The notes beneath the pieces were generated by a model. That model did no database searches. It had not been told where the DNA came from and worked only from the letters and a program-made list of their open reading frames with translations. DNA of 64,000 nt. Origin: an uncultured Acidobacteriota bacterium. Its GTDB lineage: Bacteria > Acidobacteriota > JAQAZP01. The translations under genes and the position numbers were made by a program. Shown piece by piece: positions 27,515 to 62,507 of the stretch. The stretch covers positions 2,304,001-2,368,000 of the forward strand of contig CAWIIB010000009.1 in the NCBI GenBank assembly GCA_963836075.1, given 5' to 3'. How positions within the stretch are numbered: the stretch's first letter is position 1; each line of letters begins with the position of its first letter.

Positions 27515-29185
27515 TCAGCGTAAGGCCACCATCTGGTGCGCATCGCAGCATGGCTCCACCACCGCCAGCAGATCGTCCAGCAACCCCATGCCGTGGCGGC
27601 AGATGAAGGGCAGGCCGGAGAGCGCCCGTTCCTGCGGCTTTTCCTTCGGGCGCAGCGTGTTCAACGTACGCTCCAGGGCGTCGAAGGTGGTGCGTTCGCG
27701 GCGCTGCAATGCTGAGCGAACTTTTCTCTCCACCTTGTCCAGGCCTTTCAAACCGCCTCCGCGTATCTTGCCCACCGGGCCGGTCAGTGTCTTGTCCAGG
27801 GGAGTGAGCGCATCCTCCAGATCGTCGAGCAGCGCGCCCAGCCGGTGACGGGCCTGCTCCAGGGATTCGAACAGGCCGGGGTCAGCTGTCTCCCGGAGCA
27901 GGCGGGGGCGAAGTTCCTCGGAACGGAGCAGGGCGGCGGCCGGTTCAACTGCGTACTTTACCAGGAACCGTTCTGCCGCCTGATCGATGATGGTGAAGGA
28001 TGGCCGGTGGATCACTGCCGGGGCGCTCATCCCCACCACCGGGTAGAGAGCCGCCGACTGGGCCAGGTACGCCGTTTCGCCCGGGCCACCCACGTAGGCT
28101 GCAGTGGGGAAAAGGTGGTCCTGGAACAGGCAGCGGGTCAGGGCGCTGCCACTGAATCGCCACGGTTCCGCTTCCGCCAGCTCTGCCAGCCGTTCCCGGT
28201 CAATGGCCGGTCCCTGTAAACCGCCCAACACCAGGGGGGATTCCGCCTCACCCTGCCGCTGGCGAAGAATGGCCCGTCGCCGTCCCTCGTCGTCGATGAG
28301 AAAGAGCCCGGTACGGCCTTGCCGAGGAGCTACCTGCAGCGGGTATCCCCTGGTTTCCAGCAAGTCTTCCCGCTTGCTCAGTGCCAGCTCCAGCGGGAAT
28401 ATCTGCCGCAGGAAACGGTCCAGCAGCGGCCTGGTGAGGGATTTGATTTCGCGCTGGGAGGGATCGACCATGATCAACCCGTAACGGCCGAAAAGTCGTG
28501 ACATCAGCCGGCCGAATCCTTCCGCCAGGCTGCCCGATTTTTCGTAAGCCTCGAGGAACGGAGCCAGGGGTTCTGCTGCGCCCTGAAATCGGTCCCGCAG
28601 GACCCCCGCTACGTCCGCCAGGTCGCCGATGGTCCTGGCCGAAATGGGACGCCCGTCCTCCGTCTCGTTGTCGGGGAGCGTTGCCGTTTCGATATCTCCG
28701 CTGCCCGCGGTGAGATACGTAAATCGTTGGACCTCCCTGAAATCGTGATCATCGGCAGCGATCCAGAAGACCGGCACGGCGTCCACTCCGTTTTCGCTCA
28801 GATACCGCGCCGCCCGGATGGCTCCCAGCGCCTTGTACAAGGTGTAGAGCGGCCCGCCCAGAAAGCCGGCCTGCTGGCCGGTGACCACGGCCATGGTTCC
28901 CGGACTGGCCAACTTGCCAATGGCTTCCGCTGTTTCGTCCCCGCCCCCCAACTGTCGGTTCTGCTGGTGGAGGATCCGGGCCAGCTGGTCCCGCGGCGCC
29001 GCTTCTTCTCCCTCCTCCAGCGCCTGCCGGCGCGCCGCGGCCGCCCGGCACAGCTGGTCCGGAGTCCGGGCGGGGTGCGGGTAAATGGAGGGGAAGAGAT
29101 CGGGCCGGCCTTCGAGGAAATGGCGGGCCAGTTCCCCTGTTTCGGGATATCGACCCGGGGGCAGACTGCCGATGGTGGTGATCAT
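27515..29185 (-). CDS. bshC: Bacillithiol biosynthesis cysteine-adding enzyme
   Basis: VVTGQQ.G..GGPLYT.YKA, PVFW.A.DDHDF.E, YVGGPGE.AY, PQER. Confidence 0.93.
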   Translation of the reverse strand: MITTIGSLPPGRYPETGELARHFLEGRPDLFPSIYPHPARTPDQLCRAAAARRQALEEGEEAAPRDQLARILHQQNRQLGGGDETAEAIGKLASPGTMAVVTGQQAGFLGGPLYTLYKALGAIRAARYLSENGVDAVPVFWIAADDHDFREVQRFTYLTAGSGDIETATLPDNETEDGRPISARTIGDLADVAGVLRDRFQGAAEPLAPFLEAYEKSGSLAEGFGRLMSRLFGRYGLIMVDPSQREIKSLTRPLLDRFLRQIFPLELALSKREDLLETRGYPLQVAPRQGRTGLFLIDDEGRRRAILRQRQGEAESPLVLGGLQGPAIDRERLAELAEAEPWRFSGSALTRCLFQDHLFPTAAYVGGPGETAYLAQSAALYPVVGMSAPAVIHRPSFTIIDQAAERFLVKYAVEPAAALLRSEELRPRLLRETADPGLFESLEQARHRLGALLDDLEDALTPLDKTLTGPVGKIRGGGLKGLDKVERKVRSALQRRERTTFDALERTLNTLRPKEKPQERALSGLPFICRHGMGLLDDLLAVVEPCCDAHQMVALR

Positions 29186-30111: not shown

Positions 30112-32181
30112 ATGGCCCTTCGCTATTCACCAGTGGAAATGTTCGCCCGGATCATACCGGTTCTCCTGCTGCTTGCGGCGGTTGGCTGCGGCAGCCCGCC
30201 GGGATCAGAAGAAAACGCTGACGGGGCGGCGGGGTTGACCACCCCACTGTTGGCCGAGATCTGCCGCTTCGAGGACCGCCGGACACCGGTGGCGGATCGT
30301 TTCGACGAGTTTGCCGCGCACCCCGACCCGGCGGTCAGGGCGCGGGCGGCCCTGGCCCTGGGGCGGATCGGCGACCCGCGGTCGGATCCGTTGATTCAGG
30401 CGCTGCTGGAAGACGAGGATTCCGGTGTGCGGGGCGAGGCGGCTTTTGCCGCCGGGCTGGCCGGTGACCCGGCCCTGGAACCGGCGCTCCGCCGACGGTT
30501 GGACGACGATGACCCGCAGGTCCGCGGCCTGGCGGTCCAGGCCCTGCTGCGGCTGGGCCCGGGGGATCAGGGCCCGGGTCCGCTGGCCGATCTGCTGCTG
30601 GAACGGGTGGGCGATGAGCCCGGTGATGAACTGCAGATGCTGCTGGGCAATGCCTGGCGTCTGGACGGTGATCACGGGTTGGACGATCTGCTGGTGGGGT
30701 GGGCCGCCAAACCGGCGGACGCCGGAGGGCGGCAACGGCTGGCGGCCATCTACAGCCTGGCCCGCAGCGGAGAACCGGCGGCCGCCCCGCTGTTCATCCG
30801 CCTGCTGGACGACGAGGATCCGGCGGTGCGGGCCCTGGCGGCCCGGGGCCTCGGGGCGGCCGGCGCCAGGGGTGTGGATCCGGCGGTGGCCGGTGCCGCG
30901 GTGGCCGGTGCTCTAGCTGGCGAGGACCACTGGCTTGTCCTGGTGGAAGGGTGGGGCGCCCTGGGCCGCCTCGGCTTTGCACCGAAAGCGGACGTGCACT
31001 GCCGGGCCATGGGCGACCGCCACCCCCAGGTCCAGACCGCCGCCATCCGGGCCGCCGGCTCGATGGCCGATGCGGGCGATGAGGTCCGGACGTGGCTGGC
31101 GGCCCTCCTCGGCGCGGACGAGCCGGGGGTGGCCCCGGATGCCGCCGAGGCCCTGGCCCGTCTGGGCGACCCCCGGGGCCTGCGCTGGGGATTGGAGGCC
31201 ACCCGATCACCGGAGCCGTTCAGGCGCGGGGATGCGGCAGCGGTGCTGGCCCACTTTGCCTCGGTTGACGGTGCTCGCGCCGCCCTGCGGTCGTTGCTGG
31301 GTGATGAGGCCGGGAGCGTTGTGCGCGCAGCGCTCACCGCGGTGGCCGGCGCCGGCCGCTCGGCAGATTTCCAGGAGGACATCACCCGGATCCTGATCGA
31401 GGGCCGCGATCCCCTGACGCGGGCGGCGGCGGCCGAAGCGCTGGGCGCCCTGGGGGATCCGGCGTCCTCGCTGCCCCTGCTCCTGGCGGCCGACCTGCGG
31501 GAGTCGAAGCAGAAAGCGGTCGATTGTCGCCTCTCCGTCCTGGGGCTGCTGGCCGGCCACCCGGACAACCCGGATGTGGTGCAGGCGGTGCAGCGGGGTC
31601 TGGAGGGACGGGACCGGCTGGTCCGGCAGCGGGCCGCCGAAATCCTGACCGGCTGGGGGCGGCGGGCGGAGATCCCCGCCGGGGTTTGCGAGGAACGGGG
31701 CAAGCCGCAACTGGACCGCTACCTCCGGGCGGCGGAACTGTATCACCGCCGAGTGAGGGCCCGGATCGACACCGCTCACGGGGCGATCATCCTGGATCTC
31801 TTCCCGAAGGAAGCGCCGCTCAACGTGCTCAACTTTCTCGAACTGGCCCGGGACGGGTATTTTGACGGCACACGGTTCCACCGGGTGGTGCCCGGGTTCG
31901 TGCTCCAGGGCGGCGATTCCCAGGGGGACGGGTGGGGCGGTCCGGGGTATGCCATCCGTTGCGAGAACAGCCGCCTGCAGTATGATCGCGGCATGGTGGG
32001 CATGGCCCTGTCGGGCAAGGACACCGGGGGGAGCCAGTTTTTCATCACCCTCGCCCCCCAACCGCATCTCGACGGACGGTACACCATCTTCGGGAGGGTG
32101 GCCGAAGGGATGGACGTGGTGGACCGGATCCGCCGCGGGGAGCGCATCACCACGGTGCGAATGATGGTTGACCCCGCCTGA
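30112..32181 (+). CDS. Lipoprotein with HEAT repeats and C-terminal cyclophilin-type PPIase
   Basis: Lipobox-like AAVG-C; HEAT repeats; FHRVVPGFV.QGGD and DTGGSQFFI motifs. Confidence 0.88.
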   Translation: MALRYSPVEMFARIIPVLLLLAAVGCGSPPGSEENADGAAGLTTPLLAEICRFEDRRTPVADRFDEFAAHPDPAVRARAALALGRIGDPRSDPLIQALLEDEDSGVRGEAAFAAGLAGDPALEPALRRRLDDDDPQVRGLAVQALLRLGPGDQGPGPLADLLLERVGDEPGDELQMLLGNAWRLDGDHGLDDLLVGWAAKPADAGGRQRLAAIYSLARSGEPAAAPLFIRLLDDEDPAVRALAARGLGAAGARGVDPAVAGAAVAGALAGEDHWLVLVEGWGALGRLGFAPKADVHCRAMGDRHPQVQTAAIRAAGSMADAGDEVRTWLAALLGADEPGVAPDAAEALARLGDPRGLRWGLEATRSPEPFRRGDAAAVLAHFASVDGARAALRSLLGDEAGSVVRAALTAVAGAGRSADFQEDITRILIEGRDPLTRAAAAEALGALGDPASSLPLLLAADLRESKQKAVDCRLSVLGLLAGHPDNPDVVQAVQRGLEGRDRLVRQRAAEILTGWGRRAEIPAGVCEERGKPQLDRYLRAAELYHRRVRARIDTAHGAIILDLFPKEAPLNVLNFLELARDGYFDGTRFHRVVPGFVLQGGDSQGDGWGGPGYAIRCENSRLQYDRGMVGMALSGKDTGGSQFFITLAPQPHLDGRYTIFGRVAEGMDVVDRIRRGERITTVRMMVDPA

Positions 32182-58219: not shown

Positions 58220-59419
58220 TCACGAGGAATTCGATGTTTCAGCGGGAAATTCCGGCGGGTGGCCCGCCGCCTCCAGCAGCAGGTTGATGGTCTGCCGGGC
58301 CGCCCGTTCCCAGGAGAAATTCCGGCAGCGTTCAGTGCCCCGCCGGGCCATCTGCTCCGACTCCCGGTGGTGGGTCAGGGCCCGGGCCATCACTCCGGCC
58401 ATCTGCTCCACATCTTCCGGGTCGAAATAGAAAACGGCATCCCCGCCCACTTCGGGTAGCGAGGCGGCACTGGAACTGGCCACCGGAACGCCAAAGGCCA
58501 TTGCCTCCAGCAGCGGCAGGCCGAACCCCTCGTGCAGGGACGGGTAGGCAAAGAGCCGGGCCGTGCGGTAGAGGATGGCCAGAGTTTCATCGTCAACCCA
58601 GCCGGTGACCAGCAGGTCCTGCTCACCCAGTTCCAGGCGCCGGGCTTCGGCTTCCACCCGGGCGTGGGCCCGGCCCTTGATTCCGGCAAGTACCAGCTGC
58701 AGCCGCTCCAGCCCGTCCTGGCCGGCCAGTCTGGTTTTCACCTGCCGGAAGGCCTGGAGCAGCCGTTCCACGTTTTTGTGCGGAGCCAGGGTCGAGACGC
58801 AGAGGATGTGGGCCGGGCAGACACCCAGGGCATCCAGCCGTTGCCGCATCTCCTGATCGGACGGTGCCGCGGCGGCCGCCTGCTCCAGCAACCGGCGGGC
58901 GGGAGCCTCGTGGATCACCCGTACCTTTTCAGGTGGCAACCCGTAGGCCTGGCAAAGCCGGTGGGCGGTGAACCGCGAGACAGCGATCACCCGCTGGGCC
59001 CGGCGAGCGGAGAAGGGGATCAGTGTCTCCAGAAAGAGGCGGTAGGAGCGGGGGAAATTGTCCGGGTGGGTGCGCCAGATCAGGTCGTGAACCGTCACCA
59101 CCGTGGGCAGCCCGCCGCAGATCGGGGTGGTGAACCCGGGCGAGAACAAGACGTCGGCACCGTGTCGCAGCAACTGCCAGGGCAGCACCAGCTGTTCCCA
59201 GAGGATGCGCCGTGGCCGGGACTCCGCCGTCACCGGGCACAGAATCCGCTCCAGCCCCGGGGCGTCAGCGAAGGTGTGGTGGTTCTCGCGGTTGGTAAAC
59301 AGGATCAGGCGGTGCCGGATGGAAACGTCGGCCATGGCCGCCAGCAGGGAGCGGGTGTAGATCTCGGTGCCGCCCACCCGGCCGGGCAGCAGGAACAGCG
59401 TGTTGACGGCAATGTTCAT
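58220..59419 (-). CDS. Glycosyltransferase family 4
   Basis: [32 protein letters not shown]. Confidence 0.92.
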
Positions 59420-60609
59420 CCGCCTTCGGCCGCCTCCTCAGCCTCGGTTCCCGGGGCGTCCGGTTCGTCACCGGCAGGTTCCTGTCCGCCCGGTGGCGCT
59501 TCGTCCTCGGCCTGGTCGAGCTTGTCATACTGGCGGCGCACGGCGTTGTAGTTCACGGTGACCACCGCCTGGGACGGACTGTTGGTGGAAATGCTGATGG
59601 TGCCTTCGGTCTCGCTGTTCGCCTCCAGGGCATCGGCCCGGAGGGTGGCGGTCAGTTCGAATTTCTGGCCCGCAATCAGCTCCACCAGGTCCAGGTCCAG
59701 CAGACCATTGTTGTCCCGGCAGCCGAACACGCTGAGCGGCCTGTCCGGGCTGTGTCCGGTGAGGTAGATCCGTTTCCAGCTGTCCCGCGGGTCCCGTTTC
59801 CCTGTTCCCACCACCATCAGCCGCAGGTGATCGGGCGTCACTTCCACGTCACCAGTGATCAGTCCGGTGATGTTCAGCGTGGCCGGGGGAGGGCCCCCGG
59901 ATGCGGCAGTGGCGGTAATGGTTTCCTTCAGCGGACCCGTGGACAGACCGGGCAGGGCCGAGATCTCGATCTCCAGGCGCTGGTGACCGTCCATGGTTCC
60001 GCCGCTATCCACCAGCCGGGCGGTGATGTGAGGGGATGTGGATTCGAGGCCGGCCAGTTCGGTATCCGCTGGATCACGGACCAGAATCACGGCGCGTCCG
60101 GAAACCGCTTCCACGGCCTGGTAGTGAATCGTGCCCAGAGCCAGCGCCCCTGTTTCGAAACCGAAGGGCACCTCCACCCGGGCGGTGAACATCAATCGGG
60201 TCAACCGGTTCTGCGGGTCGTTGGAGGTCAGTTCAATGACCCGGCTGGTCTCGCCCACCACGTCCTGACCGATAAAAGTCACTTCCACACCACCCTCCTC
60301 TCCGGGAGGGATCACCGGGTGGAGGATGGAGGTGCTGATGCAGGAGCAGTGCCCGTCGGCCTTGACCAGGCGCAGGTCGGCATTACCACTGTTCCGGATG
60401 GTGTAGACTGCGGAAACCGCTTCACCCCGGACCACGGTGCCGGCATGGTGTTCCGGGTGGGGAATCTCGATCAGCGGAGCGGCAGATTCCGTGGAAGGTT
60501 CGGCAACGGCCTGAAGCGGCTCGTCCTCTTCAGCCGGGGCGGCGATGCCGCCCAGCAGGAGCAGGGCGACCAGTGCGGCGGTGGCCGTGGTCAGCGGTGT
60601 GCGGGTCAA
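59416..60609 (-). CDS. Exported DUF1573 (Ig-like) domain protein, Cys-containing paralogue
   Basis: Signal peptide; N.G...L.L...GHCSC, IPPG..G, TSNDP motifs. Confidence 0.85.
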   Translation of the reverse strand: MTRTPLTTATAALVALLLLGGIAAPAEEDEPLQAVAEPSTESAAPLIEIPHPEHHAGTVVRGEAVSAVYTIRNSGNADLRLVKADGHCSCISTSILHPVIPPGEEGGVEVTFIGQDVVGETSRVIELTSNDPQNRLTRLMFTARVEVPFGFETGALALGTIHYQAVEAVSGRAVILVRDPADTELAGLESTSPHITARLVDSGGTMDGHQRLEIEISALPGLSTGPLKETITATAASGGPPPATLNITGLITGDVEVTPDHLRLMVVGTGKRDPRDSWKRIYLTGHSPDRPLSVFGCRDNNGLLDLDLVELIAGQKFELTATLRADALEANSETEGTISISTNSPSQAVVTVNYNAVRRQYDKLDQAEDEAPPGGQEPAGDEPDAPGTEAEEAAEGG

Positions 60610-60692: not shown

Positions 60693-62090
60693 CTATGGTT
60701 TCGGCGTTTTCTCCTTCTCCTCCTCGTCCGAATCGCTGTCGGTATCTGAATCAGCCGGCGGCTCGTCCTTTTTCTGGATCTCCGGCATCTTTTTCGTCTT
60801 GGCCGGCTGTTCCGCGCCTCCCAGTTCACCGCCCGGAGCGAACGGGTCATTCTCACCCGCGGCAAACAGCCCTTCAGCGGTATCGCTCTTCAGGGCAGGC
60901 TGTCCGTCGCGCAGGCTCCCTCCTATGGGGGGTGGCATCTTCCTTCCGGATCTGTTTTTCTTGTCGCCCTTTTCCTTGTACGACTTGCGCACCGCACTGT
61001 AGCGTATGGCCACCTCTTTCTGACTGGGGAAGTTGGTGGTCAGGACCACGTTGCCGCTGATATTGCCCTTCCCGGGAATGCTATCCGGTTTCAGTGTCGC
61101 GGTCAGTTCGTACTTTTTCCCCGGCGACAGCGGTTTCAGCTCGAGATCCAGGTGGTCCTCGGTGTCCTTGATATCGACGATCTCCAGATTGGCGCCCTCA
61201 ACGTGGTTGCTGATGAAGATCTTTTTGGTCAGGGTGGACGGCCGGGAGGAGGCCGTGTCGGTGACCACGAAGGTCATCCACTCCGGTGAGACCTCCACAT
61301 CCCCGATCACCGAGCCGGTGAGGCGGAGCATCGCTGTGGGTTTATCCGGGAGATTGGTTTTCAGGGTGACGGTCTCGTTGATCCGGCCCAGCGGCAGACC
61401 CGGCAGTGTGGTCACTTCCAGCTTCATCCGGTCGTAGTGGCCATTGTTGTCGGTGTAATCGAGCATCCTGGCGCTGATGAACTCGGATGAGGGATTCACT
61501 TCCAGCACTTTGGTGGCCGCCAGATCCTTGACCAGGATGAACGAACTCTTGGTTGTGCCCGCGTCGCGGCTCACCTTGCCCAGGTAGAGGCTCGGCTGCT
61601 CGAAGTCGAAGACCACTTCGATAAAGACCTTGACCCGGATGGTCGAGGTGGGGTTCTTCGGGTCGTTGGACGTGACCGTGATCGACTTGGTCAACGCGTT
61701 CTTTTTCGATCCGGAATTGAAAGAGACCTTGATCGTTCCTTCCCCGCCCGGGGGAATCGCCGTCTTGGTAACGACGGCAGCGGTGCACCCTCAGGAACCT
61801 TTGGCCTTGATCAACTGGAGCGGTGCATCTCCCTTGTTGATCACCTTGAAATTGTGGCTCACCTTGCTTCCGCTGGCGATGGTGCCAAAATCGTGCAGCG
61901 GCTCCGGAAAAAAGATCTCCGGAGCAGGTTGACCCGCTTCCACGCTCTTGCTGGCCTGGGAGAGTTTCCCCCTGGCGGTTTTGGCCGCCGGGTCCGCCGG
62001 CTTCTCCTGGGCTGCCAGTGGCGGGGTGAATACCAGGACCGCAGCGATAATCACCATCACCGCTGCAACGGAAAGAGAGGATCTGTTCAT
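60693..62090 (-). CDS. Exported DUF1573 domain protein, predicted selenoprotein (465 aa, Sec100 in S-U-G-C)
   Basis: ORFs 61791-62090 and 60693-61694 are in one frame, separated only by TGA at 61791-61793; read-through gives KAKGS-U-GCTAAVVTKTAIPPGGEG, which aligns without gaps to the paralogue's KADGH-C-SCISTSILHPVIPPGEEG. Confidence 0.8.
61759..61778 (-). promoter_or_regulatory. Candidate bacterial SECIS element
   Basis: GCCGUC-GUUACCAA-GACGGC starting 12 nt after the UGA; loop starts with G, 18 nt after the UGA. Confidence 0.7.
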
Positions 62091-62507
62091 GGCTTCTGCT
62101 ACCTTTCACTGACCGGGTCACCCCCGGAACATCCTGTTGCTCCTCGTCACCGAATGGGGAACGGACGTGTCCACAATAGCGGTCGGAATCTCCAAGGAAC
62201 CGCTCCCGGTGACTGTGGAACCTGATACGCATGGAGTCGGCGAAGCGTCGAGAAGAAATCAATGGTTTCCGCCTGCCGGCTGCATCGTTGCCCCTGAAAC
62301 CGCAAAACCCTGCCCTGAGGCAGGATTGGGCTTGGAACAGCCATATTTTCAGCAGTATAAATATAGGGGATCGTTTGAAGTCCGTCAAGAGCGACACTGT
62401 CCGGCCGGGAGGCCGATGACCACAGAACAGGACAGCCCGCCATGTGGAGCGGAACAAGCGTGACTTTGTAAGCGTTTTAAATTGAATTCGTTACGACTAT
62501 CGTTATG

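What the first reader, a model, noticed from the sequence alone, without database searches (positions are those of the whole stretch)
60693..62090. Hidden exported selenoprotein: DUF1573 gene with in-frame UGA, U-G-C motif and SECIS-like hairpin
Seen: the two ORFs share a frame and are separated by a single TGA (61791-61793). The intervening codons are ordinary DUF1573 sequence. The TGA falls exactly on the first Cys of the adjacent paralogue's C-S-C, in an ungapped alignment. A perfect 6-bp hairpin with a G-initiated loop follows 12 nt later, and I see no equivalent hairpin after the paralogue's Cys codon. Known: DUF1573 carries a CxC motif, and bacterial Sec insertion needs a SECIS just 3' of the UGA. 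Inferred: a 465-aa signal-peptide-bearing selenoprotein of Ig-like fold, unlike classical redox selenoenzymes, which standard gene callers would split. I cannot check whether this family is already in selenoprotein catalogues.
Basis: partly seen in the sequence, partly recalled or inferred. Interest (0 to 1): 0.9.

Follow-up and report, generated by a model that had tools for sequence, protein, structure and literature searches.

The report
Known-family DUF1573 selenoprotein gene, split by callers
The in-frame TGA is almost certainly a genuine selenocysteine codon in an exported three-domain Ig-like protein, but this DUF1573 "U-G-C" selenoprotein family has been in the catalogues since 2007, so it is a new member of a known kind.

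Summary
One frame runs 62090-60693 (-) and is broken only by TGA at 61791-61793. Reading through gives a 465-aa protein with a DUF1573 domain (Pfam, 101 bits). The TGA sits on the first Cys of the family's CxC motif, and a 6-7 bp hairpin starts 12 nt after it.

The selenocysteine reading is well supported:
- The genome has selA, selB, tRNA-Sec (anticodon TCA) and two selD genes.
- Two more paralogues in this genome carry TGA at the same column.
- Across 61 related genomes, 22 of 23 TGA-bearing matches (13 genomes) have x-U-G-C. All 24 stop-free matches examined have C-x-C there.
- An uninterrupted hairpin of at least 6 bp follows the codon in 17 of 22 Sec forms and 0 of 24 Cys forms.
- The 60 nt after the TGA are the best-conserved part of the gene among three orthologues.

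The family is not new. It is OS_HP2 = pfam07610, motif UxC/UGC (Zhang & Gladyshev 2007, 2008; reviews of 2022 and 2026; NCBIfam NF041425). This protein scores 95 bits there, under the 100-bit cut-off. Orthologues in protein databases are stored as truncated fragments.

Function is unknown. I infer an exposed selenenylsulfide redox or metal site on an envelope protein.

The parts
60693..62090 (-). Whole selenoprotein gene: ATG at 62088-62090, TAG stop at 60693-60695, 465 codons including one UGA (Sec)
   Evidence: translation with TGA=U; Pfam DUF1573 101.4 bits; NCBIfam NF041425 95.0 bits against a cut-off of 100
62010..62090 (-). Predicted N-terminal signal peptide, about residues 1-27 (MNRSS..., hydrophobic core, ...PLAA|QE)
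   Evidence: Read by eye from the translation; no signal-peptide predictor was available. AF2 pLDDT is below 55 for residues 1-50
61791..61793 (-). UGA = selenocysteine codon (residue 100) in the motif S-U-G-C-T
   Evidence: Same column carries TGA in 22 of 23 TGA-bearing matches and C-x-C in 24 of 24 stop-free matches examined
61758..61779 (-). SECIS-like hairpin: 7 bp (6 Watson-Crick plus 1 U.G), 8-nt loop GUUACCAA, stem starting at nt 15 counted from the U of UGA
   Evidence: -12.4 kcal/mol. Identical in the two same-genus orthologues. 57 of 60 nt after the TGA are identical in three orthologues, against 66% for the whole gene
61644..61910 (-). DUF1573 / HYDIN-VesB-like Ig domain (residues 61-149); the first beta-sandwich, carrying the U-G-C turn
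   Evidence: AF2 model: strands 91-98 and 103-107 flank a four-residue turn 99-102 (S-U-G-C), pLDDT 94-97
61305..61610 (-). Second Ig-like beta-sandwich (residues ~161-262)
   Evidence: AF2 model, pLDDT mostly above 90; no Pfam family reported there at E <= 0.01
60984..61298 (-). Third Ig-like beta-sandwich (residues ~265-369)
   Evidence: AF2 model. The same three-domain layout aligns with the adjacent paralogue over residues 56-387
60696..60983 (-). Low-complexity K/E/D/P-rich C-terminal tail (residues ~370-465), predicted disordered
   Evidence: pLDDT 43-70; least conserved part among orthologues
59416..60609 (-). Adjacent Cys paralogue (397 aa, C-S-C at the Sec column), 83 nt downstream
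   Evidence: no hairpin at the equivalent place; the same neighbour is found in L067 and L068
58220..59419 (-). GT4 glycosyltransferase whose ATG overlaps the paralogue's TGA stop (ATGA); possibly the same operon
   Evidence: gene order conserved in L067 and L068; no terminator-like site between the genes
62360..62388 (-). Promoter-like site (TTGACG-17-TATATT, 10 of 12), about 270 nt upstream of the ATG
   Evidence: a consensus match only, not evidence of function

Best explanation
This is one gene for an exported selenoprotein of the DUF1573 (OS_HP2) family.

Shown by computation:
- The UGA at 61791-61793 lies on the first Cys column of the family's CxC motif.
- It is followed by a hairpin at the spacing expected of a bacterial SECIS.
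- The genome holds the full selA/selB/selC/selD machinery.

Inferred from the established bacterial mechanism: SelB carrying Sec-tRNA(Sec) binds the hairpin while the ribosome sits at the UGA and inserts selenocysteine. The product is then the full 465-aa protein, not a 99-aa stump.

Inferred from sequence and model:
- A signal peptide takes the protein across the inner membrane.
- The mature protein is a rod of three Ig-like beta-sandwiches with a disordered charged tail.
- S-U-G-C forms a tight exposed turn between two strands of the first domain.

Most likely chemistry (inference, about even odds): U100 and C102 cycle between selenol/thiol and an intramolecular selenenylsulfide. That would make the protein a redox-active envelope component that exchanges with thioredoxin-like (TlpA/ResA-type) partners. 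Sec would replace Cys to give a more reactive nucleophile.

When selenium is scarce the gene would yield only the truncated peptide. The adjacent Cys paralogue could then partly stand in (speculative).
For: - Frame and motif.
- Family: DUF1573 101.4 bits; OS_HP2_seleno 95.0 bits.
- Sec machinery in the same genome, all over their cut-offs: tRNA-Sec 74.7 bits with anticodon TCA, SelB 365.7 bits, SelA 562.8 bits, two SelD genes each with one in-frame TGA.
- Two more paralogues in this genome have TGA in x-U-G-C-T.
- Relatives: 61 genomes searched, 35 with a match, 79 match rows (my count), 23 rows with one TGA in 13 genomes. In 22 of those 23 the TGA is at this column.
- All 24 stop-free matches examined have C-x-C there: 21 CGC, 2 CSC, 1 CNC.
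- Hairpin specific to Sec forms: at least 6 uninterrupted bp in 17 of 22 Sec against 0 of 24 Cys. dG <= -6.5 kcal/mol in 19 of 22 against 1 of 24. Mann-Whitney p = 2e-6, and 8.5e-5 after collapsing same-genus orthologues to 16 against 23.
- At least eight different stem sequences occupy the same place.
- All 13 genomes with a TGA form have SelB over its cut-off.
- Three orthologues: 57 of 60 nt after the TGA are identical against 66% overall; third codon positions 17 of 20 against 47%.
- Contigs of three DNA runs (X1, X2, X9) cover 61791-61793 with no listed difference there. The X2 variant shows 14 listed differences in the flanks and none listed between 61723 and 61802.
- TGA is an ordinary stop elsewhere, for example at the end of the adjacent paralogue.
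- A Cys-form protein 50% identical reads ...KAKASCGCT....
- Redox link: Cys forms with the same Ig array are fused to a thioredoxin-like domain with CxxC (P0037, P0061 read; P0044, P0059 by their Pfam lists).
- Structure: mean pLDDT 81.6, and mostly above 90 over residues 55-370 (blocks of 87 and 73 at 271-290); the U lies in the turn 99-102.
- Literature: the family is listed as a selenoprotein family with motif UxC/UGC.
Against: - There is no experimental evidence of selenium incorporation for this gene. In the passages I read, no experiment on the family is reported and all predictions are computational.
- For this sequence alone the hairpin region folds no better than shuffles (z -0.39, +0.15).
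- The whole-segment MFE contrast between Sec and Cys forms is modest: p = 0.007 on energy, p = 0.06 on z-scores.
- A G in the first two loop positions does not discriminate: 14 of 22 Sec forms against 11 of 24 best hairpins in Cys forms.
- The NCBIfam OS_HP2 cut-off is not reached: 95 against 100 bits. None of the 61 genomes has a match over it.
- The SelB association is not significant, because 51 of 61 genomes have SelB. My arithmetic puts the chance of 13 of 13 at about 0.1.
- The redox mechanism is pure inference. The neighbourhoods of the three Sec paralogues share no theme.
- The RNA contigs of X20 cover only parts downstream of the TGA and may be DNA carry-over.
Confidence: 0.9

Rival explanations
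1. The U-G-C turn is a metal-binding site (for example Cu(I), Hg or Zn held by selenolate plus thiolate), not a redox-cycling pair. The protein would be an envelope metal chaperone or sink. It is still a selenoprotein; only the chemistry differs.
For: Several catalogued selenoprotein families in the same tables are metal-handling proteins: MerT, MerP, a cation ATPase, CopZ-like and YHS proteins. A two-residue Cys/Sec pair on an exposed turn could chelate a soft metal (inference from the model).
Against: No metal-resistance or transport gene lies next to any of the three paralogues examined. The domain fusions seen are to thioredoxin-like domains, not to metal domains.
Confidence: 0.25
2. The TGA is a true stop. 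Either two separate products are made (a 99-aa signal-peptide stub and a 333-aa protein restarted at TTG 61694), or the gene is a pseudogene inactivated by a nonsense mutation.
For: Gene callers report it this way. The 333-aa ORF and its orthologues are stored as separate proteins of 303-345 aa. TGA is a normal stop in this genome.
Against: - The break cuts the DUF1573 domain in two.
- The 32 codons between the TGA and the TTG are conserved domain sequence.
- The same codon at the same column occurs in 22 genes of 13 genomes.
- A dedicated hairpin follows it.
- The downstream piece would lack a signal peptide.
- Three paralogues in one genome would have had to acquire the same nonsense mutation.
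Confidence: 0.03
3. The TGA is an assembly or sequencing error for TGC/TGT.
For: The genome is a multi-contig assembly: 10 contigs, 94.7% complete, 4.6% contamination.
Against: Contigs from three other DNA runs cover the site without a listed difference. Same-genus assemblies carry TGA there too. Only contigs could be laid, not raw reads, and 56 difference rows were not displayed.
Confidence: 0.01
4. The UGA is read through, but by a near-cognate tRNA (Trp or Cys) or by a general recoding of UGA, not by Sec-tRNA.
For: Read-through as such cannot be told apart from Sec insertion by sequence alone.
Against: The complete Sec machinery is present. The UGA sits only on a Cys column. TGA ends ordinary genes here, so there is no genome-wide reassignment.
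Confidence: 0.03

Closest known systems
OS_HP2 / 'DUF1573 domain-containing protein' selenoprotein family (Zhang & Gladyshev 2007, PMC1976440; GOS 2008, PMC2398784; reviews PMC9312934 and PMC13188914; NCBIfam NF041425 OS_HP2_seleno)
   Same: Same Pfam domain (PF07610) and the same UxC/UGC motif at the single CxC site. Cys homologues exist and a SECIS-like stem-loop lies downstream.
   Different: It scores 95 bits, under the 100-bit NCBIfam cut-off, and 0 of 61 related genomes reach it. The phylum here is Acidobacteriota by the record title of L068, whereas the family was first found in deltaproteobacterial worm symbionts. The protein is long: three Ig-like domains plus a tail. I could not see the original OS_HP2 sequences (figures are not held, supplements are closed), so their length and architecture were not compared.
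Cys-form DUF1573 proteins, e.g. the adjacent paralogue 59416-60609 and P0012
   Same: Same three-domain layout: 34% identity over 334 aa to the paralogue and 50% to P0012. CxC is at the same column, and the N-terminus is signal-like.
   Different: They have Cys in place of Sec and no hairpin after the codon.
Exported thiol-disulfide oxidoreductase selenoproteins (DsbA-like, DsbG-like families in the GOS table)
   Same: It may work like them: a Sec paired with a nearby Cys in a protein predicted to act outside the cytoplasm (for the catalogue; the function here is inferred).
   Different: The fold is an Ig-like beta-sandwich, not a thioredoxin fold. The motif is UxC, not UxxC. It is not a member of those families.
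Bacterial SECIS as defined for E. coli fdhF (recalled from memory: minimal upper stem-loop about 11 nt after UGA, with G and U in the apical loop near positions 23-24)
   Same: The stem starts at nt 15 and the loop at nt 22-29 begins G-U. Paralogue p3 has a 6-bp stem with the loop GGUC at nt 21-24.
   Different: No bulged U is evident and the loop here has 8 nt. SelB binding was not tested. Rfam has no matching model.
HYDIN/ASH/VesB-like Ig domains (PF22544, PF15780)
   Same: Same fold class. The best Foldseek matches are arrays of such domains in ciliary central-apparatus proteins, followed by cadherins and titin.
   Different: Those are eukaryotic structural proteins without the CxC/UxC motif. 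The likeness is in fold only: TM-scores 0.15-0.33 because multi-domain rods superpose poorly.

Membership tests
DUF1573 (Pfam PF07610) | Score over Pfam's gathering cut-off | tested here: met
   101.4 bits against 26.1, residues 61-149, profile positions 3-91 of 98
NCBIfam NF041425 OS_HP2 family (seleno)protein | Score over the curated cut-off of 100 bits | tested here: not met
   95.0 bits with C in place of U; 84 bits in the six-frame search; 0 of 61 related genomes over the cut-off
Catalogued DUF1573/OS_HP2 selenoprotein family (literature definition) | PF07610 domain with Sec in a UxC / UGC motif | tested here: met
   S-U-G-C-T at residues 99-103. The tables list 'pfam07610, UxC' and 'PF07610, UGC'
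Catalogued DUF1573/OS_HP2 selenoprotein family (literature definition) | Homologues with Cys aligned to the Sec | tested here: met
   24 of 24 stop-free matches examined have C-x-C at the column; also the adjacent paralogue and P0012
Catalogued DUF1573/OS_HP2 selenoprotein family (literature definition) | Direct sequence likeness to the original OS_HP2 members | not testable with these tools
   Accessions are given in the reviews but cannot be fetched here. Figure 4 of PMC1976440 is not held and supplements are closed
Bacterial selenoprotein gene (general) | selA, selB, selC and selD in the same genome | tested here: met
   All are over their curated cut-offs; tRNA-SeC has anticodon TCA
Bacterial selenoprotein gene (general) | Stem-loop immediately 3' of the UGA, present in Sec forms and absent from Cys forms | tested here: met
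   At least 6 bp in 17 of 22 against 0 of 24; dG <= -6.5 in 19 of 22 against 1 of 24. Caveat: the single-sequence z-scores are not significant
Bacterial selenoprotein gene (general) | G within the first two nucleotides of the apical loop (bSECISearch rule, recalled from memory) | tested here: inconclusive
   Met for this gene (loop GUUACCAA). Across Sec forms it holds in 14 of 22, against 11 of 24 best hairpins in Cys forms, so it does not discriminate
Bacterial selenoprotein gene (general) | Selenium actually incorporated at the UGA | not testable with these tools
   Needs 75Se labelling or mass spectrometry
Thioredoxin-fold thiol-disulfide oxidoreductases | Thioredoxin fold with a CxxC/UxxC motif | tested here: not met
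   No thioredoxin-like Pfam match. The model is all-beta Ig-like and the motif is UxC. Only 'works like' is proposed

The most novel reading that the evidence does not exclude
DUF1573 Ig-like arrays would be the envelope-side redox partners or substrates of TlpA/ResA-type thioredoxins. In these Acidobacteriota the conserved cassette Sec-DUF1573 -> Cys-DUF1573 -> GT4 glycosyltransferase would form one module: a selenenylsulfide-bearing 'fast' subunit and a Cys 'backup' or partner subunit acting together on the cell surface. That would give a first function to DUF1573. It would also be a rare case of a Sec/Cys isoform pair kept side by side in bacteria.
Probability: 0.15. Interest if true: 0.55.

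Novelty: new member of a known kind. Interest (0 to 1): 0.3.

Why it matters
In practice, this is an annotation gap. In 13 of 61 related genomes, genes of this kind carry the Sec codon. None of the 61 genomes reaches the NCBIfam cut-off, and orthologues sit in protein databases as headless 303-345-aa fragments with no Pfam domain. Acidobacteriota selenoproteomes are therefore undercounted, and the DUF1573 domain of these proteins is invisible to protein-level searches.

Biologically, the family still has no known function. A Sec on an exposed turn of an exported Ig-like rod, a Cys twin next door and thioredoxin fusions in relatives give a testable redox hypothesis.

It does not change what is known about Sec decoding, and it is not a new selenoprotein family.

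Tried and rejected
- Rfam search of 61600-61900 at E <= 10: no match. This says nothing about the hairpin.
- My first attempt to fold the paralogues' hairpins used wrong coordinates in L002 and L003 (second and third sequences). Those two folds are meaningless and were replaced.
- Whole-segment MFE and z-score comparison of Sec and Cys forms was only weakly discriminating, so I replaced it with a position-restricted hairpin measure. The first script for that crashed on sequences with no hairpin and was fixed.
- PDB sequence search gave only marginal matches: 2qsv E = 0.23, 2e6j HYDIN E = 0.3.
- Foldseek against PDB gave generic Ig-array matches and no functional lead.
- The neighbourhoods of the other two Sec paralogues have no common theme. 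One has a sulfatase, an M64 peptidase, Ddl and a Rex-like protein. The other has CarD, a methyltransferase, an AhpC/TSA gene 2 kb away on the other strand, DUF456 and a PMT-like protein.
- ORF listing with TGA=U on those loci was uninformative in this GC-rich DNA.
- The RNA-library contigs (X20) do not cover the TGA and cannot show read-through.
- Literature: a search for 'DUF1573' found 4 papers in the library, none with a functional study. The 2026 review has no occurrence of 'Acidobacteri', 'signal peptide' or 'periplasm'.
- A window-wide scan for other pairs of long high-GC3 frames separated by a single TGA found two places (31207-31209 and 29182-29184, - strand). Neither has a Cys-like context, so I did not treat them as selenoprotein candidates.
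Full report
**The observation**

The minus strand between 62090 and 60693 holds a single reading frame interrupted once, by TGA at 61791-61793. Read with TGA=U it gives 465 residues and ends at TAG. The Sec candidate is residue 100, in ...LQLIKAKGS-U-GCTAAVVTKTAIPPGGEG....

Pfam places a DUF1573 domain on residues 61-149, so it spans the TGA (101.4 bits). The 32 codons between the TGA and the next possible start (TTG at 61694) are part of that domain.

The neighbouring gene 59416-60609 (-) is a paralogue: 34% identity over 334 aa. In an ungapped block its C-S-C aligns with U-G-C.

Twelve nucleotides after the UGA a hairpin forms: GCCGUC / GUUACCAA / GACGGC, plus a closing U.G pair (window 61779-61758). 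The paralogue has nothing comparable there; its best hairpin is 4 bp at -2.1 kcal/mol.

One caveat applies. Taken alone, this GC-rich stretch folds no better than its dinucleotide shuffles (z -0.39 and +0.15).

**Does the organism decode Sec?**

The window lies in a 6.2-Mb assembly of 10 contigs. That genome holds:
- a tRNA-Sec (74.7 bits, over Rfam's gathering score; ARAGORN calls tRNA-SeC with anticodon TCA);
- SelB (365.7 bits);
- SelA (562.8 bits);
- two SelD genes over the cut-off, each with one in-frame TGA of its own.

TGA otherwise ends ordinary genes, for example the adjacent paralogue. There is no genome-wide reassignment.

**Comparative test of the codon**

The NCBIfam model NF041425 finds four places in the genome. 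Three have one TGA inside the match, and all three read x-U-G-C-T.

In 61 related genomes (own included), 35 have a match. I count 79 match rows, 23 of them with one TGA, in 13 genomes. I translated all 23. In 22 the TGA stands at this very column, followed by G-C-[T/A/S]. The 23rd is a weak match (E = 2e-4) without the motif, and its TGA lies at the end of the match.

Of the 56 stop-free rows I examined the 24 for which a locus was at hand. I left out L048, which comes from an unpublished genome. All 24 have C-x-C at the column: 21 CGC, 2 CSC, 1 CNC.

All 13 genomes with a TGA form have SelB over its cut-off. The 10 genomes without a SelB match hold five OS_HP2-like matches, none with TGA. 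Since 51 of 61 genomes have SelB, this agreement is expected by chance about one time in ten (my arithmetic), so it is only consistent, not probative. The tallies include the unpublished genomes G025 and G048. No sequence of theirs was used.

**Comparative test of the hairpin**

All 22 Sec forms fold into a stem-loop that starts 11-19 nt after the U of UGA, with at least eight unrelated stem sequences.

A whole-segment energy comparison with the 24 Cys forms is only modest. Means are -13.2 and -10.0 kcal/mol (p = 0.007), z-scores give p = 0.06, and GC content is equal.

A position-restricted measure is clear-cut:

| Measure | Sec forms | Cys forms |
|---|---|---|
| Uninterrupted stem of at least 6 bp | 17 of 22 | 0 of 24 |
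| Best hairpin at or below -6.5 kcal/mol | 19 of 22 | 1 of 24 |
| G in the first two loop positions | 14 of 22 | 11 of 24 |

For hairpin energy, Mann-Whitney gives p = 2e-6. After collapsing the same-genus orthologues (16 against 23) it gives 8.5e-5. The five Sec forms below 6 bp have interrupted stems in the MFE folds. The loop-G rule does not discriminate between the two groups.

Among three orthologues (own, L067, L068) the 60 nt after the TGA are 57/60 identical against 66% for the whole gene. Third codon positions are 17/20 identical against 47%. That is what an RNA constraint laid over coding sequence predicts.

**Independent DNA**

Contigs of three DNA runs (X1, X2, X9) cover 61791-61793 without a listed difference. 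In X2, a diverged strain, 14 of the contig's 15 differences are listed. They lie at 61646-61722 and 61803-61869, with none listed between. Only contigs were available and some difference rows were not displayed, so this is good evidence but not final.

Contigs of an RNA library (X20) match 61233-61383 and 61536-61686. They show neither read-through nor, strictly, transcription.

**What the protein looks like**

By eye, the first 27 or so residues form a signal peptide (basic N-terminus, hydrophobic core, PLAA|QE). No predictor was available.

An AlphaFold2 model built from a 60-sequence alignment has mean pLDDT 81.6, mostly above 90 for residues 55-370. It shows three beta-sandwiches (about 58-158, 161-262 and 265-369) followed by a disordered K/E/D/P-rich tail. 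S99-U100-G101-C102 is the four-residue turn between strands 91-98 and 103-107.

Foldseek finds arrays of HYDIN/ASH-type Ig domains, cadherins and titin. This is fold class only. No solved structure is close in sequence.

**What is known**

NCBIfam's best match is 'OS_HP2 family (seleno)protein', at 95.0 bits against a cut-off of 100. I read the following:
- Section 12 and Table 2 of Zhang & Gladyshev 2007 (PMC1976440). OS_HP2 is one of six new selenoprotein families from Olavius symbionts, with two TGA-containing genes and stem-loops downstream.
- A table passage of the GOS paper (PMC2398784), whose row reads 'OS_HP2 pfam07610 UxC'.

The family, its domain and its motif are therefore already catalogued.

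I saw no functional or experimental study. Four papers in the library hold 'DUF1573' at all. Figures and supplements were not visible, so I could not compare the original sequences.

**What is new here**

The additions are modest:
- The gene is a below-threshold relative, and 0 of 61 related genomes reach the NCBIfam cut-off.
- Its phylum is Acidobacteriota, by the record title of L068.
- It has three Sec paralogues per genome.
- In public protein collections its orthologues are headless fragments of 303-345 aa without any Pfam domain.
- The order Sec gene, Cys paralogue, GT4 glycosyltransferase (start overlapping the paralogue's stop) is kept in L067 and L068.

**Mechanism**

Shown by computation: codon, column, hairpin and machinery.

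Inferred from the established bacterial pathway: SelB with Sec-tRNA reads the UGA on the hairpin's cue, and the full-length protein is exported.

Inferred more weakly: U100 and C102 form a reversible selenenylsulfide on an exposed turn. The support is the UxC/CxC geometry and the Cys forms with the same Ig array fused to a thioredoxin-like domain carrying CxxC. I read P0037 and P0061; P0044 and P0059 are known only by their Pfam lists.

A soft-metal site is the main alternative for the chemistry. The neighbourhoods of the three paralogues give no further hint.

A test of pairing between the Sec protein and its Cys neighbour could not be run.

**Verdict**

This is a real and well-supported selenoprotein gene that standard callers split. 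It belongs to a family already in the catalogues, so it is a new member of a known kind. Its interest is low to moderate, and its main value is for annotation and as a handle on the unknown function of DUF1573.

Noticed in passing
G000:C4:17381-18301 (+) and G000:C9:892330-893256 (-) (loci L022, L023): There are two selD (selenophosphate synthetase) genes over the TIGR00476 cut-off, each with one in-frame TGA. SelD itself is probably a selenoprotein here, in two copies.
   Followed up: no
G000:C1:848539-848820 (+) and G000:C1:411713-411994 (+) (loci L002/L069, L003/L070): Two further DUF1573 paralogues in the same genome carry TGA in x-U-G-C-T, each with its own hairpin. One has the loop GGUC on a 6-bp stem. 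Their neighbours share no theme.
   Followed up: partly
window 59416-59419 and 58220-60609 (-); L067:2914-5303; L068:4615-7007: The Cys paralogue's TGA stop overlaps the ATG of a GT4 glycosyltransferase (ATGA). The order Sec gene, Cys gene, GT4 is conserved in two same-genus records.
   Followed up: partly
rows: G005:C41, G018:C2 (4633946/4635016), G035:C10, G050:C32, G006:C1 (1232606/1233672): DUF1573 genes often come in tandem pairs about 1.1-1.4 kb apart in related genomes. In G005 one member of the pair carries TGA and the other does not, in the opposite order to this window.
   Followed up: no
proteins P0037, P0044, P0059, P0061: These homologues have the same DUF1573 Ig array fused to a C-terminal thioredoxin/AhpC-TSA/Redoxin domain. 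P0037 and P0061 carry both CGCT and a CxxC.
   Followed up: partly
L070:2149-2814 (-): An AhpC/TSA-Redoxin gene lies about 2 kb from Sec paralogue p3, on the other strand with genes between. This is weak as a context hint.
   Followed up: no
window 31207-31209 and 29182-29184 (- strand): At two other places in the window, long high-GC3 frames are separated by a single TGA. The flanking peptides show no Cys-like motif, so these are probably adjacent genes that share a frame.
   Followed up: no
window 61723-61802: In the diverged strain seen in run X2, the stretch holding the TGA and the hairpin has no listed difference, while the flanks have 14.
   Followed up: partly
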